Assembly (NCBI GenBank): GCA_963741795.1
Contig: CAVUJM010000036.1
Coordinates: forward strand, 20,994-84,993
Source of the DNA: an uncultured Chloroflexia bacterium
Lineage (GTDB): Bacteria; Chloroflexota; Chloroflexia; Thermomicrobiales; UBA6265
Length of the DNA: 64,000 nt
Direction: 5' to 3'
This document shows, piece after piece, positions 27,563-31,175 of the stretch; the first letter of the stretch is position 1, and every line of letters begins with the position of its first letter. The notes below the pieces were generated by a model. That model did no database searches. It was not told the DNA's origin and worked only from the letters and a program-made list of their open reading frames with translations. Made by a program: the position numbers and the translations under genes.

Positions 27563-28244
27563 GCTGGACGCCATCCACGCCACGTTCTCCAGCGATGAGC
27601 TCGCGCATGTTCAACTGAACGTCCTCGCCCCTCAGTCGAGCTTCGTGTACTCACTTGCCGGTCGATTCCGCGATCGATACCTGGCGGACCCGGCGTTCGC
27701 GGGCCGCGAGCGGCGCAAGCTCGCCTTCGCACCCTGGTACACCCGCAGCAAGGAATACAGCCAGGACCGAAGCTATCCCGTCGACGCGAACACCGGCGTC
27801 GTCGGATTCACGATCAACCTTGTCGACCGCACGGTGTCGCTGGTGGCACCGCGGCCATCGTCGGACGCGTTTCCCCTCGGCTTTGAGACGTTGGATCGCC
27901 TTCGGTTCACCGACAGCGAACGCTTCGCGGACGCGCTGGACACATTGATCCGACGCTGGATGCCGGAGCGGCTCGCGGAAGCGGACAAGGTCCAACTCTG
28001 GGACGGCCTTCGCTGCGAAGCAATCGCTGATGGTGTGCGGCTGCATGGCCGATTCGGGCAGTTCACGGAGATCGTGGATGCCGACCATGCACTACTGATC
28101 CAGTCGATCGCGGCTGCACTGACCCGGGGAGCGACGGTTGGGGATATCCAGCGGGCGAACGACGCTGATCCTGATCTGTCAACAACCATCCTCCACCGCT
28201 TCTTCGTCGCCGGGCTGCTTCAGGAGATCCGTATCAATGACTGA
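27489..28244 (+). CDS. Probable C-terminal continuation of the radical SAM enzyme, in the +1 frame
   Basis: From about 27489 the frame of track ORF 27273..28244 reads LFFAEAKAAGCWSVRLTVRDQDELDAIHATFSSDELAHVQLNVL..., which is protein-like. Its stop overlaps the start of the next gene. The start coordinate is approximate because it marks a frameshift junction, not a start codon. Confidence 0.55.
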   Translation, partial: SRLFFAEAKAAGCWSVRLTVRDQDELDAIHATFSSDELAHVQLNVLAPQSSFVYSLAGRFRDRYLADPAFAGRERRKLAFAPWYTRSKEYSQDRSYPVDANTGVVGFTINLVDRTVSLVAPRPSSDAFPLGFETLDRLRFTDSERFADALDTLIRRWMPERLAEADKVQLWDGLRCEAIADGVRLHGRFGQFTEIVDADHALLIQSIAAALTRGATVGDIQRANDADPDLSTTILHRFFVAGLLQEIRIND

Positions 28245-30795
28245 CGTGACTTCGCTTCGCACCGACGCCGCCCTGATCGACTCCATCGTCCAGCGTGGTT
28301 TCGATCCGGAGATGCCGATCGGGCGCGACGACTTCCTGCGGCTTCTCGCCGACGCCGAAACCATCACCGCATTCGGTCCCGACGGTCTGCCGTCAGTCAT
28401 CTCCGAGATGGGCGAGCAGTATGGGGAGATCGGCGACGCGCTCACGCTGCCGGTCGCTGTCGGCCATCGCTGGCTCCTGCGACTGCTTCAGGACACCCCC
28501 GTCGTGCTGGAAGACACTGCGATCATGGACTCCGTCGCGACCCTGGTCAGGCGCCTCGTGCCGGTGCTCCAGCAGTTCGTGCAGTTCGACGCGATCGTCT
28601 CCCGCTCGGCGCGCAGCGTCTCACGTGGTAACGATGGATCCTCCGACGCTGGCCCGACGCTCCTGGACGCCTGGCTGGAGAGGTGGTCGACGTTCCCGGT
28701 GCTCGCATCGCTGATGACGCTGACCGTCGTTCACTGGTTCCAGTCCCTCGAGGAAATGATCCGAGCGTTGGAACGTGATCACGCCGAGATCGCTACCGGT
28801 CTCAGCGGCACCTCGACGCCCCTCACCATCAAGGCGATTCACGGCGACGCCGGCGACAAGCACCTCGACGGTCGGTCGGTGATGCTCCTCACCTTTGCCG
28901 ATGATGCGCGGGTTGTGTTCAAACCCAAGCAGCTTGCCATCACAGACGTCTTCCGGGATCTCGTCGATCGCATCAACGCGGCTGGCTTCACGCCTCCCCT
29001 CCGCGTTCACGACGCAATGGTCTGCGAGGGGCATACATGGGAGGAATACATCCCACATCGCCCCTGCGAGGACGAGGCACAGGTGGCGCGGTTCTACCGT
29101 CGCATGGGCGGCTGGATTCGCCTGCTCCAGATCGTCGAGGGCCGGGACTTTTGGCTCGACAACCTCATCGCGGACGGCGAGTATCCCATCTTTATCGACC
29201 TCGAGACGATCATGCAGCCGCGCCGCAGCGCCATGCCGATGTCCGACGCGGCCGAGCGCGTCCAGGATCGGCTAGAAGCGTCACCGCTCGTCACGAATAT
29301 CGTCGCGATGCCCGTCCCGATCGGGCCCGGCATCGCGGGTGAGGACCTGGCCTGCTTCGTGACGCCGAAGGACTTCCTCTCCCCGTTCGCGGCGACATCG
29401 ATTCCCGGGGCGAAATCGAGCGGCGAAAGCCGCGACGGCTACCGCACGTGGACGCACCCCGAGCACGCGCCGGTGCTGGATGGCGAACCCGTCGATGCGG
29501 AGCGGTGGTATCCGGAGATCGAAGCCGGATATCGGGACATGGCAGCGACCATCGACGCCCTCGCGGGCGAGTTTCTCCAGCCATGCGGGCTGGTGGACAG
29601 GCTCTCGACGCATCCGGTTCGGACGATCTTCAGAGATACCTGGACATGTATCCGCATCATCCACAGGAGCACGGCGCCTCCCCTCCTCGGTCACTACCAG
29701 CGACGACGCCAGTTCCTTGAGCGGATGGGACGGGAGTCGGCAGTCGATGCAGAGGTCACGGGTCCGGTCATCGCCGCCGAGGTGCGCGCCATGCTCGCGC
29801 TCGACGTTCCCTTCTTCAGCGCGTATGGCAACGAAGACGCGATTCATCCGCCGAGCGGAAAGCCTGTAGCCGGGTTCTTTGACGGTACTGCGCGGGACCG
29901 ACTCGTGACCAACCTACGGGTATCGTCGCGAGAACGGCTGGAAGAGGACATTGCGCTGCTCAGGACCGCGTTCTGGACGACCCATCGCAGTACACCGGCG
30001 GTCCAGGGAAGCAGCAGTGCCTCAGTCGCGCCCATTCATGACAACGACTGGATCGCCGCTGCCAGCCGCATCGCGGAAGACATCGCCGACGCGCAGGTAC
30101 CGGGGGCAGACGGCTCGTCGAGCTGGCCAGCGCTTTCCTATCACCCGATGGCCGACATCGAGAACTGGTCGCCCATCGGAAACGACCTGCTCAGCGGCCG
30201 CGCGGGACTGATACCGATGTTCCTCGACGAGTGGCGCACGACCGGAGAGGAGCGGTGGCGGGATCTCGCATCATCATTGGCACATGAGGTCGCCGCGACG
30301 ATTCGCCAGGTCGGGCTTCCGTTGCGAGGCGACTCTCCCCCATCGCATCCTGCCGCTCCGTTGCTCCTCGGGGCGTTCACCGGCGTCGGCGGGATGTTGG
30401 CGGCCGTCAAGCTGGCGTCCGATGAGCTGGACGACGGAGATCTCGAGCGCAAATGGAGCGATACACTCCACGGCGTGGACTGGGCCGCGGCCCTGGATCG
30501 CTCAGGCAGTGACGTTGTTGGGGGCGCCATCGGGTTCGGGCTTGCACTCACGGCCCGACCGGAATGGGCGGACCACGTCCCCGACAATGTGAGGTCGCTG
30601 CTTGCCAGCATCGGGCAAGACGAGGAGCGACGATCGAGCGTCATCTACCCGCCGATCAACCGCCGGAAGGCTCGCTATCCTGCCTGGCAACCATATTGGG
30701 AAGATGCTGATCCGATCTCGACTCGATCTCGCGGCCTCCGGATCGAACCCGGACGACATCCACTCGGTGCTCCATACCTCGCTGAGTCCCGGTGA
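28237..30795 (+). CDS. LanM-like class II lanthipeptide synthetase homologue (DUF4135 dehydratase domain + degenerate LanC-like domain)
   Basis: The ATG at 28237 overlaps the upstream stop (ATGACTGA). The dehydratase-domain signatures HGDAGDKHLDGRSVMLLTFADDARVVFKPK and DFWLDNLIADGEYPIFIDLETIM are present. The C-terminal part has LanC-like Gly-rich turns (LLSGRAGLIPMFL, LLGAFTGVGGMLAAV, VVGGAIGFGLAL). After about 30640 this frame loses protein character and stops at 30795. Confidence 0.8.
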   Translation: MTDVTSLRTDAALIDSIVQRGFDPEMPIGRDDFLRLLADAETITAFGPDGLPSVISEMGEQYGEIGDALTLPVAVGHRWLLRLLQDTPVVLEDTAIMDSVATLVRRLVPVLQQFVQFDAIVSRSARSVSRGNDGSSDAGPTLLDAWLERWSTFPVLASLMTLTVVHWFQSLEEMIRALERDHAEIATGLSGTSTPLTIKAIHGDAGDKHLDGRSVMLLTFADDARVVFKPKQLAITDVFRDLVDRINAAGFTPPLRVHDAMVCEGHTWEEYIPHRPCEDEAQVARFYRRMGGWIRLLQIVEGRDFWLDNLIADGEYPIFIDLETIMQPRRSAMPMSDAAERVQDRLEASPLVTNIVAMPVPIGPGIAGEDLACFVTPKDFLSPFAATSIPGAKSSGESRDGYRTWTHPEHAPVLDGEPVDAERWYPEIEAGYRDMAATIDALAGEFLQPCGLVDRLSTHPVRTIFRDTWTCIRIIHRSTAPPLLGHYQRRRQFLERMGRESAVDAEVTGPVIAAEVRAMLALDVPFFSAYGNEDAIHPPSGKPVAGFFDGTARDRLVTNLRVSSRERLEEDIALLRTAFWTTHRSTPAVQGSSSASVAPIHDNDWIAAASRIAEDIADAQVPGADGSSSWPALSYHPMADIENWSPIGNDLLSGRAGLIPMFLDEWRTTGEERWRDLASSLAHEVAATIRQVGLPLRGDSPPSHPAAPLLLGAFTGVGGMLAAVKLASDELDDGDLERKWSDTLHGVDWAAALDRSGSDVVGGAIGFGLALTARPEWADHVPDNVRSLLASIGQDEERRSSVIYPPINRRKARYPAWQPYWEDADPISTRSRGLRIEPGRHPLGAPYLAESR

Positions 30796-31175
30796 CCTGC
30801 TCGGGCTCATTGAGCTGAGCGATTCAGAAGCGACGGTGGTGGCCGCACCTTTCGCCGCTCGTCGGCACGGCCATCGACCAGAAAGGGAGGTCCCGTGACC
30901 GCCTCGAGCAGGTGCAGGCGGCCGAGCTGGCGCTGGCGATGTCGAGCGCGACGCAGGATAAAGAGTGGCTCCAAAAGGCGCAGTCGCTGGGGACCTGCTG
31001 GATCGACGAGTTCAACCGAACGGGAAGCTGGTTCCCGAAGGACCTCGCCGACGACCGTTATCGCCTGTCGAGCGTGCGTGGGTTGCCCGCCATCGCCTCT
31101 GTTCTTCGCCGCCTCGGAGGGGCGACGAGCATCGCCGCGCCAATGACGATGAACTGGCGCCCATGGAATCAGTGA
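30602..31175 (+). pseudogene. Out-of-frame remainder of the LanC-like domain (two further reading frames)
   Basis: Track ORF 30602..30898 contains IHSVLHTSLSPGDLLGLIEL. Track ORF 30912..31175 contains AAELALAMSSATQDKEWLQKAQSLG...VRGLPAIASVLRRLGG, which looks like the C-terminal helices of a LanC fold. Its stop overlaps the start of the next gene. Confidence 0.5.

What the first reader, a model, noticed from the sequence alone, without database searches (positions are those of the whole stretch)
28237..31175. LanM-like enzyme with altered kinase-type motif and a LanC-like domain that lacks recognisable zinc/acid-base residues and is frame-broken
The N-terminal DUF4135-type domain is clear (GDKHLDGRSV..., ...NLIADGEYPIFIDLE). 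The motif I remember as D-L/M-H-x-E-N in characterised LanMs reads DFWLDN here, with Trp where His is expected.

In the C-terminal domain the Gly-rich turns of a LanC fold are visible. The positions I would expect to read AHG, WCxG and CHG read FTG (LLGAFTGVGG), GG (VVGGAIGF) and SP (SLSPGDLLG).

Between about 30600 and 30900 the fold continues in two other reading frames. The first frame stops at 30795 and the second at 30898. The third frame ends at 31175, where its stop is coupled to the start of the next gene. Two readings are possible. The enzyme may be a dehydratase-only or scaffold LanM derivative recruited to an azole pathway, or it may be a decaying gene.
Basis: partly seen in the sequence, partly recalled or inferred. 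Interest (0 to 1): 0.68.

Follow-up and report, generated by a model that had tools for sequence, protein, structure and literature searches.

The report
Azole-pathway LanM-like dehydratase, frame breaks likely artefacts
This gene encodes a known kind of zinc-free LanM-like peptide dehydratase, sitting in a nostatin-like azole peptide cluster of a Chloroflexota soil bacterium, and its two frame breaks are most likely single-base errors in the assembled contig, not gene decay.

Summary
Window 28237-31175 is a DUF4135 plus LanC-like gene that reads DFWLDN where canonical LanMs read DxHxEN. It has no zinc ligands or acid/base His, and it is split over three frames.

This is not a new kind of enzyme. 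It belongs to the published "LanMbC" dehydratases of the dehydrazole/nostatin RiPPs (CcaM, Nat Commun 2023; NstG, nostatin A, 2024). The cluster holds an NHLP precursor, a fused YcaO, a SagB dehydrogenase, a PoyD-like epimerase, the LanMbC and a C39 peptidase. The predicted core, AVASCQSTASSCCTITCLSSSSTASTNSCS, is close to the nostatin A core.

Trp-for-His is a subfamily signature. All 25 full-length DxW relatives lack every zinc/His motif; all 72 full-length DxH relatives keep both zinc-ligand motifs.

The frame breaks are two single inserted bases (about 30656 and 30824) relative to an intact 979-aa ortholog. Downstream sequence is still under purifying selection (dN/dS about 0.3). The same contig carries other single-base indels that near-identical short-read contigs lack, and one stretch has 15-24 frameshifts in 1.3 kb. 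I therefore read the breaks as assembly errors (about 85%), with recent real inactivation the main rival.

Verdict: a new member of a known kind, of modest interest.

The parts
28237..31175 (+). [quoted passage not shown] It reads as 979 codons if the two inserted bases are skipped. As assembled it is split over three frames.
   Evidence: The alignment to intact P0002 (979 aa, locus L002) is gap-free except for two +1 insertions.
28693..29823 (+). DUF4135 dehydration (lipid-kinase-like) domain, residues 153-529.
   Evidence: PF13575, E 2.7e-84, profile 1-377 of 378; the intact ortholog P0002 matches TIGR03897 at 357 bits against a cut-off of 304.
29146..29163 (+). DFWLDN catalytic-loop motif. 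It corresponds to CylM D347-x-H349-x-x-N352, with Trp306 in place of His.
   Evidence: alignments to CylM and LicM2. (every LanMbC-like hit but one, P0030 DFIGEN, has Trp here; all canonical hits have His). (W306 is invariant in 25 sequences).
30049..31172 (+). LanC-like alpha/alpha-toroid domain without zinc ligands or acid/base His, about residues 605-979.
30655..30656 (+). Frame break 1: one extra base (T in CCGA[T]CAACC) relative to L001 and L002.
   Evidence: and (the frameshift-aware alignment places it at 30655).
30824..30836 (+). Frame break 2: one extra base, probably the second T of GAT[T]CAG. Its position is ambiguous within about 12 nt. L001 has its own extra C (CCC to CCCC) in the same two codons.
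26810..28244 (+). PoyD-like radical SAM epimerase gene (NstF/CcaD counterpart), frame-broken by one extra base at about 27481.
   Evidence: the intact L002 ortholog matches TIGR04517 rSAM_PoyD over 1-446 of 446, E 2.4e-85.
22426..22782 (+). NHLP-type precursor peptide (118 aa) with the nostatin-like core AVASCQSTASSCCTITCLSSSSTASTNSCS.
   Evidence: The nostatin core is taken from PMC11583998.
22722..25241 (+). Fused E1-like/YcaO cyclodehydratase. Coordinates are the longest ORF; homologs align from about codon 89, near 22986.
25296..26813 (+). SagB/ThcOx-type azoline dehydrogenase.
31172..32359 (+). C39 leader peptidase domain protein (about 394 aa) with no ABC ATPase domain.
32402..33082 (+). 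Conserved 226-aa protein with no family match. It is present in L001 and L002 at the same place.
33089..34435 (-). Cytochrome P450 at the cluster edge.
   Evidence: It is also present in L001 and L002.
20771..22334 (+). SAM-dependent methyltransferase (20771-21577) and SnoaL-like protein (21768-22334), upstream of the precursor. Both are syntenic in L001 and L005; the SnoaL-like gene is also in L006.

Best explanation
Identity. The gene encodes a LanMbC-type dehydratase. This is a class II LanM-like ATP-dependent kinase/phosphate-lyase domain (DUF4135) fused in cis to a zinc-free LanC-like toroid. It belongs to a nostatin/dehydrazole-type proteusin cluster in a Thermomicrobiales-like (Chloroflexota) genome.

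Inferred pathway, by homology to the characterised CcaM and the nostatin A cluster:
- The fused YcaO and the SagB dehydrogenase first convert Cys/Ser/Thr of the NHLP precursor core into azoles.
- No lanthionine rings are made. The LanC-like domain acts as a required substrate-binding or structural partner, not as a cyclase.
- The PoyD-like epimerase, methyltransferase and P450 tailor the peptide, and the C39 domain removes the leader.

Catalytic residues. Eight of the nine CylM residues shown by mutagenesis to matter are retained. The ninth, His349, is Trp in every relative that lacks the zinc site.

Frame breaks. The two breaks in this gene, and the one in the epimerase gene, are most likely single-base insertion errors of the assembly. 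On that reading the organism has an intact 979-aa enzyme.

Shown versus inferred. Shown here: domain content, residue map, cluster content, precursor similarity, the nature of the indels, and the error-proneness of the contig. Inferred: enzymatic activity, order of reactions, and the artefact status of these three particular sites.
For: Family and fold
- DUF4135 full length plus partial LANC_like. The same partial LANC_like coverage is seen in intact relatives, including P0019, the LanM of the nostatin producer strain Nostoc sp. CALU 546 and hence taken to be NstG.
- The AF2 model of ortholog P0002 has pLDDT 88 and pTM 0.90. Its best structural matches are LicM2 (E 1.9e-32) and CylM (E 2.3e-26) over the full length.

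Residue map, CylM to this protein
- D252 to D207, H254 to H209, K274 to K229, D347 to D304, H349 to W306, N352 to N309, D364 to D321, R506 to R462, T512 to T468.
- All are invariant in 25 relatives. Roles are taken from PMC4550811.

Subfamily signature
- All LanMbC-like hits but one (P0030, DFIGEN) read D-x-W-x-D-N. All canonical LanM hits read DxHxEN or a close variant.
- 25 of 25 full-length DxW proteins lack WCxG, C[HC]G and SHGxxG. 72 of 72 full-length DxH proteins have WCxG and C[HC]G (alignments).

Cluster
- NHLP precursor, YcaO, SagB, PoyD-like epimerase, LanMbC and C39.
- The five-gene core from precursor to LanMbC is conserved in that order in Chloroflexota, Polyangium and Nostoc loci.
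- The core peptide is nearly that of nostatin A.
- CcaM biochemistry is taken from PMC10676384.

Frame breaks as artefacts
- Exactly two +1 insertions and no other indel across 2940 nt at 78% identity.
- dN/dS downstream of the breaks is 0.30-0.38, with no in-frame stops.
- 10 of 12 clade members are intact, and the two broken ones sit on the two longest contigs, 99.6 and 74.5 kb.
- Short-read contigs of 95-100% identical strains lack the window's single-base indels at 2204, 3170, 43558 and 43838. Applying these differences restores open frames where tested, at 2204 and at 43558 plus 43838.
- Window 41.58-42.92 kb holds 15-24 frameshifts yet keeps 60% amino-acid identity to a distant homolog. 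The adjacent intact part gives 0 frameshifts with the same method.
- L001 has three +1 insertions within 50 nt of its SnoaL gene.
Against: - No reads or contigs cover the three sites themselves (27481, 30656, 30824), so the artefact status is indirect.
- None of the inserted bases lies in a homopolymer of more than two bases.
- All six frame-breaking indels of the window and L001 in the aligned cluster fall in the epimerase, LanMbC and C39 genes. None falls in YcaO, SagB, the precursor or the P450.
- One indel falls in the same two codons in both contigs. Uniform random error does not predict either pattern.
- Activity and azole dependence were not tested for this protein, and identity to the presumed NstG (P0019) is only about 32%.
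Confidence: 0.8

Rival explanations
1. The frameshifts are real and recent. The late genes of the cluster (epimerase and LanMbC here; also C39 in the relative L001) are being inactivated, so the organism makes at most an azole-only peptide, or nothing.
For: - The frame breaks of both contigs cluster in the same three genes, and none lies in YcaO, SagB, the precursor or the P450.
- The inserted bases are not in long homopolymers.
- CcaM needs its LanC-like domain in cis, so losing 8 helices after residue 806 would plausibly inactivate the enzyme.
Against: - dN/dS is 0.30-0.38 downstream of the breaks, with no stops and no further indels.
- The contig provably carries other single-base indels that short-read contigs lack.
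- It also has a stretch with raw-read-like indel density.
- All short-read-derived orthologs are intact.
Confidence: 0.13
2. Frame break 2 is an inherited, tolerated feature. Either the C-terminal ~90-117 residues are made by +1 recoding, or they are made as a separate small protein that completes the toroid.
For: - The window and L001 both carry a +1 insertion within the same two codons.
- The downstream frame stays under purifying selection in both.
- In L001 the downstream ORF overlaps the upstream stop.
Against: - There is no slippery or stall site in the window (GAT TCA GAA).
- The window's downstream ORF can start only at GTG 30912 and would lose about 30 residues.
- The window, L001 and L002 form an unresolved trichotomy (168, 171 and 158 informative sites), so shared ancestry of the insertion has no support.
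- Break 1 is unique to the window and would still cut the protein.
- The CcaM domains do not work in trans.
Confidence: 0.02
3. The gene encodes a canonical class II lanthipeptide synthetase that forms thioether rings, and the missing ligands result from misalignment.
For: The intact ortholog P0002 scores above the cut-off of NCBIfam TIGR03897, lanti_2_LanM.
Against: - The TIGR03897 match covers profile positions 23-699 of 932 only.
- No WCxG, C[HC]G or SHGxxG motif occurs anywhere in the C-terminal part of 25 of 25 relatives.
- The alignments agree.
- The characterised relatives give products without lanthionine.
Confidence: 0.02

Closest known systems
NstG, the LanM-like enzyme of the nostatin A cluster (Nostoc sp. 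CCALA 1144 / CALU 546; PMC11583998)
   Same: - Same gene order: precursor, YcaO, oxidase, PoyD-like epimerase, LanM-like enzyme.
- Same DFWLDN motif and the same zinc-free LanC-like domain.
- The precursor core is nearly the same: AASCQTTASSACTTPSCLSSASTASSNSCS in nostatin against AVASCQSTASSCCTITCLSSSSTASTNSCS here.
   Different: - About 32% identity over 80% of the protein, using P0019, the LanM of Nostoc sp. CALU 546, as the presumed NstG.
- The host is Chloroflexota rather than cyanobacteria.
- The core lacks the Pro that is isobutylated in nostatin A, and I saw no B12-dependent radical SAM methylase in the cluster. A SAM methyltransferase, a SnoaL-like protein and a P450 are present instead.
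- The C39 protein has no ABC part.
CcaM, the LanMbC of carnazolamide/dehydrazole biosynthesis (Chryseobacterium carnipullorum; PMC10676384)
   Same: [quoted passage not shown]
- Co-located with an NHLP precursor, YcaO, a dehydrogenase, a radical SAM epimerase and a methyltransferase.
- CcaM is the only member with biochemistry. It is ATP/Mg-dependent, azole-dependent and leader-independent, and the C-terminal domain is needed in cis.
   Different: - I did not hold the CcaM sequence itself. Similarity is inferred through the shared subfamily (P0022/P0025-like proteins, about 36% identity).
- The cca cluster uses an S8 protease, whereas this one uses a C39 domain.
Canonical class II lanthipeptide synthetases (CylM 5DZT, LicM2 6ST5)
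   Same: - Same overall two-domain fold.
- Same ATP/Mg and elimination residues: D252, H254, K274, D347, N352, D364, R506 and T512 equivalents.
   Different: - His349 is replaced by Trp.
- The zinc ligands (Cys875, Cys911, His912 equivalents) and the acid/base His are all absent.
- No thioether formation is expected.

Membership tests
LanMbC (dehydrazole/nostatin-type dehydratases) | N-terminal DUF4135 (class II LanM dehydration) domain | tested here: met
   PF13575, E 2.7e-84, full length.
LanMbC (dehydrazole/nostatin-type dehydratases) | Fused C-terminal LanC-like domain that lacks the zinc ligands | tested here: met
   No Cys/Cys/His equivalents in the alignment. No WCxG or C[HC]G motif in 25 of 25 relatives. 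The toroid fold is predicted with high confidence in the intact ortholog.
LanMbC (dehydrazole/nostatin-type dehydratases) | Co-located YcaO cyclodehydratase and azoline dehydrogenase | tested here: met
   YcaO at 22722-25241 and SagB/ThcOx at 25296-26813.
LanMbC (dehydrazole/nostatin-type dehydratases) | NHLP-type precursor with a Ser/Thr/Cys-rich core | tested here: met
   118-aa precursor at 22426-22782. TIGR03793 E 8.7e-9 (below the curated cut-off), and 42-47% identity to the Polyangium, Nostoc and Chloroflexota precursors.
LanMbC (dehydrazole/nostatin-type dehydratases) | Sequence relatedness to a named member | tested here: met
   P0019, the LanM of the nostatin producer Nostoc sp. CALU 546 and hence the presumed NstG: E 7.8e-109, 32% identity, 80% coverage.
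LanMbC (dehydrazole/nostatin-type dehydratases) | Azole-dependent, leader-independent Ser/Thr dehydration without ring formation | not testable with these tools
   Biochemistry is known only for CcaM.
LanMbC (dehydrazole/nostatin-type dehydratases) | One uninterrupted reading frame of about 980-1075 codons | tested here: not met
   As assembled, there are two +1 insertions. They are probably technical, but the sites themselves were not verified.
Canonical class II LanM | DxHxxN catalytic loop | tested here: not met
   Reads DFWLDN.
Canonical class II LanM | Cys/Cys/His (or Cys/Cys/Cys) zinc site and acid/base His in the cyclase domain | tested here: not met
Canonical class II LanM | Match to NCBIfam TIGR03897 above its cut-off | tested here: met
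   The intact ortholog P0002 scores 356.8 bits against a cut-off of 304, but over profile positions 23-699 of 932 only. The window's own product was not scanned.

The most novel reading that the evidence does not exclude
The invariant Trp at the kinase DxH position (W306) co-occurs perfectly with loss of the zinc site and acid/base His. It may be the structural element that makes LanMbC enzymes azole-dependent, for example by stacking on the azole that follows the target Ser and so allowing the enolate-free elimination proposed for CcaM. I found no mention of this residue in the main text or the two held supplementary text files of the CcaM paper.
Probability: 0.3. Interest if true: 0.5.

Novelty: new member of a known kind. 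Interest (0 to 1): 0.3.

Why it matters
- The finding adds a Chloroflexota (Thermomicrobiales-like) clade of about a dozen nostatin-like clusters to a RiPP class known from two characterised products. [quoted passage not shown]
- It gives a clean sequence rule for telling zinc-free, azole-pathway LanM-like dehydratases from true lanthipeptide synthetases. The rule is DxW, together with the absence of WCxG and C[HC]G, against DxH with those motifs present. Current models (TIGR03897, Pfam) label both the same way.
- It is a reminder that frame-broken biosynthetic genes on long metagenomic contigs should be checked against reads before being called pseudogenes.

Tried and rejected
- Read-level check of the frame breaks. 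The three soil runs that hold related sequence are kept only as low-depth short contigs, and none covers 27481, 30656 or 30824. A search with 30580-30900 found no run.
- Looking up the window's own contig. It is not on record.
- Shared ancestry of frame break 2 with L001. A quartet analysis with outgroup L005 is unresolved, with 168, 171 and 158 informative sites. An old shared pseudogene is rejected by dN/dS of 0.30.
- Programmed +1 frameshifting. L001 has a CCC-C context, but the window has none, and break 1 is unique to the window.
- Uniform random error. The window has a 7-kb intact ORF next to a 1.3-kb stretch with 15-24 frameshifts. I therefore describe the errors as locally clustered.
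- Identifying P0022 as CcaM. Its contig is a metagenome with different neighbouring genes and no accession was returned, so I make no such claim.
The alignment does not bear it out.
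Full report
1. WHAT IS IN THE SEQUENCE

The ORF from ATG 28237 runs to a stop at 30795. A second frame is open 30602-30898, and a third runs 30912-31175. GC3 periodicity stays coding-like but changes phase near 30600 and 30780, and again at the gene boundary near 31175.

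Pfam finds a full-length DUF4135 domain (E 2.7e-84). It finds only the first third of LANC_like, profile 2-134 of 350. The stop TGA at 31173-31175 overlaps the candidate starts of the next gene.

2. RELATIVES AND THE NATURE OF THE FRAME BREAKS

A protein search found a tight clade of eleven relatives (P0002-P0012; a twelfth hit, P0013, is a fragment) at 46-80% identity. Ten of them are 976-992 aa and uninterrupted. In the genome collection they come from Thermomicrobiales and Chloroflexia metagenome-assembled genomes.

I aligned the window gene with the intact ortholog on locus L002 (979 aa, a short-read contig) and with L001 (an ENA contig of 74 kb).
- At 78% nucleotide identity there is no indel in 2940 nt except two single extra bases in the window, at about 30656 and about 30824.
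- L001 has one extra base in the same two codons as the second.
- A frameshift-aware protein-to-DNA alignment places the breaks at 30655 and 30836.
- The upstream gene, 26810-28244, has one further extra base at about 27481.
- L001 has its own extra bases in that gene and in the C39 gene.

Downstream of the breaks the corrected frame has no stop codons, and dN/dS is 0.30-0.38 in all three pairwise comparisons. An old pseudogene is therefore excluded.

3. ARE THE BREAKS REAL?

The sites themselves could not be checked. The only runs that hold related sequence are low-depth short contigs that miss them.

The contig as a whole, however, is demonstrably indel-prone.
- (a) Short-read contigs of 95-100% identical strains differ from the window by single-base indels at 2204, 3170, 43558 and 43838. 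About 5.8 kb was covered in total, and every other piece was gap-free.
  - Leaving out base 2204 fuses two overlapping ORFs into one of 686 aa, exactly where a composition-based segmentation had predicted a frame switch.
  - Applying the two changes near 43.6-43.8 kb fuses three fragments of a GH94 domain into one open frame.
- (b) The tail of a cyclic-glucan-synthase-like gene (41.58-42.92 kb) needs 15-24 frameshifts in 1.3 kb to align with homologs, yet then shows 60% identity. The adjacent intact part shows 52% identity and no frameshift with the same method. That is indel noise without substitutions, which is not how genes decay.
- (c) L001 has three +1 insertions within 50 nt of its SnoaL gene. 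They give a 17-residue out-of-frame patch where the window agrees with a third genome.
- (d) The two frame-broken clade members sit on the two longest contigs. All short-read-derived members are intact.

I therefore put about 85% on technical insertions.

Two points speak for the rival, recent real inactivation. All six frame-breaking indels of the two contigs fall in the epimerase, LanMbC and C39 genes. One falls in the same two codons in both contigs, which chance explains poorly (roughly 1%).

A shared inherited frameshift has no phylogenetic support: the quartet counts are 168, 171 and 158 informative sites. Recoding is not supported by the sequence context in the window.

4. WHAT THE ENZYME IS

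The cluster around it contains:
- a SAM methyltransferase and a SnoaL-like protein;
- a 118-aa NHLP precursor (22426-22782);
- a fused E1-like/YcaO cyclodehydratase;
- a SagB/ThcOx dehydrogenase;
- a PoyD-like radical SAM epimerase (the intact ortholog matches TIGR04517 over its full length);
- the LanM-like gene;
- a C39 peptidase domain protein;
- a conserved 226-aa protein with no family match;
- a P450.

The five-gene core, from precursor through YcaO, dehydrogenase and epimerase to the LanM-like gene, is conserved in that order in other Chloroflexota, Polyangium and Nostoc loci. Two Cystobacter loci matched only the YcaO, dehydrogenase and LanM-like genes.

Two papers describe this system.
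[quoted passage not shown] - The nostatin A paper (PMC11583998) describes the same gene order, NstC through NstG, in Nostoc sp. CALU 546. That strain's LanM is hit P0019 (E 7.8e-109), which I take to be NstG.

The window's predicted core, AVASCQSTASSCCTITCLSSSSTASTNSCS, is close to the nostatin core AASCQTTASSACTTPSCLSSASTASSNSCS.

5. CATALYTIC RESIDUES

I used the HMMER alignments to CylM and LicM2 and the mutagenesis data for CylM. The equivalents are:
- phosphorylation residues K274, D347, N352 and D364: K229, D304, N309 and D321;
- elimination residues D252, H254, R506 and T512: D207, H209, R462 and T468.

All are present and invariant in 25 relatives. Only His349 differs; it is Trp306. 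CylM-H349A is slow but still reaches almost full modification, and CcaM-type enzymes are active, so the change is compatible with catalysis.

Among the hits, all LanMbC-like proteins but one (P0030, DFIGEN) read D-x-W-x-D-N and all canonical LanMs read DxHxEN or a close variant. All 25 full-length DxW proteins lack WCxG, C[HC]G and SHGxxG. All 72 full-length DxH proteins have both zinc-ligand motifs, WCxG and C[HC]G.

In the alignment the acid/base SHG maps to LPGNHIG, WCxG maps to the SLSPGD-LLG region, and LC[CH]G maps to DRLEQ.

The partial LANC_like match is also seen in intact P0002, P0019 (the presumed NstG) and P0022. It is a property of the subfamily, not of the truncation.

An AlphaFold model of P0002 (pLDDT 88, pTM 0.90) matches LicM2 and CylM over its full length. 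It shows eight helices and two strands after residue 806. A product truncated at the first break would lose nearly half of the toroid.

6. VERDICT

This is a new member of a known kind: a nostatin/dehydrazole-type LanMbC in a Chloroflexota cluster.
- The altered motif and the missing zinc site are family signatures.
- The "decaying gene" reading is unlikely.

Two things go modestly beyond the papers I could read. One is the DxW rule and its perfect coupling to loss of the zinc site. The other is the Chloroflexota clade with its extra SnoaL-like protein, P450 and stand-alone C39 genes.

Noticed in passing
window 34667-43900: A cyclic beta-1,2-glucan-synthase-like gene. An intact 2331-aa ORF (34667-41662; glucoamylase and GH94 supersandwich domains) is followed by GH94 catalytic-domain fragments in several frames. 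About 15-24 frameshifts fall in 41.58-42.92 kb, while 60% identity to a distant homolog is kept. The relative L001 lacks 34368-43984 altogether. I read this as a stretch of poor consensus.
   Followed up: yes
window 952-3138 and 2117-3013: Two overlapping ORFs that are one gene of 686 aa broken by an extra base at 2204, in a TTTT run. A 97% identical short-read contig lacks that base. A second single-base difference lies at 3170, at the 5' end of a HerA/FtsK-like ATPase gene (3142-4899).
   Followed up: partly
window 26810-28244: The PoyD-like radical SAM epimerase gene of the cluster is frame-broken by one extra base at about 27481. Orthologs of 477-479 aa are intact in L002, L005, L006 and L015.
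   Followed up: yes
window ~30824 and L001 ~12587: Two independent contigs, about 79% identical, each carry a +1 insertion within the same two codons of the LanMbC gene. The local sequences differ (GAT[T]CAG against CCC[C]). I have no explanation beyond chance.
   Followed up: partly
L001 3844-3894: Three single-base insertions within 50 nt of the SnoaL-like gene of L001 give a 17-residue out-of-frame patch. Across that patch the window agrees with L005.
   Followed up: yes
window 31172-33082: The C39 leader-peptidase protein is only about 394 aa: a peptidase domain plus a likely membrane part, with no ABC ATPase domain. It is always followed by a conserved 226-aa protein with no family match. 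How the product is exported is unclear.
   Followed up: no
window 22426-22782 and 20771-22334, 33089-34435: The precursor core lacks the Pro that is isobutylated in nostatin A, and I saw no B12-dependent radical SAM methylase in the cluster. A SAM methyltransferase, a SnoaL-like protein and a P450 flank the cluster and are syntenic in relatives. This suggests a differently tailored nostatin analogue.
   Followed up: partly
proteins P0032-P0035: A group of 636-641-aa proteins has a DUF4135 domain with the DFW[LIV]DN motif but is too short to carry a full LanC-like domain. By contrast, CcaM is reported to need its C-terminal domain.
   Followed up: no
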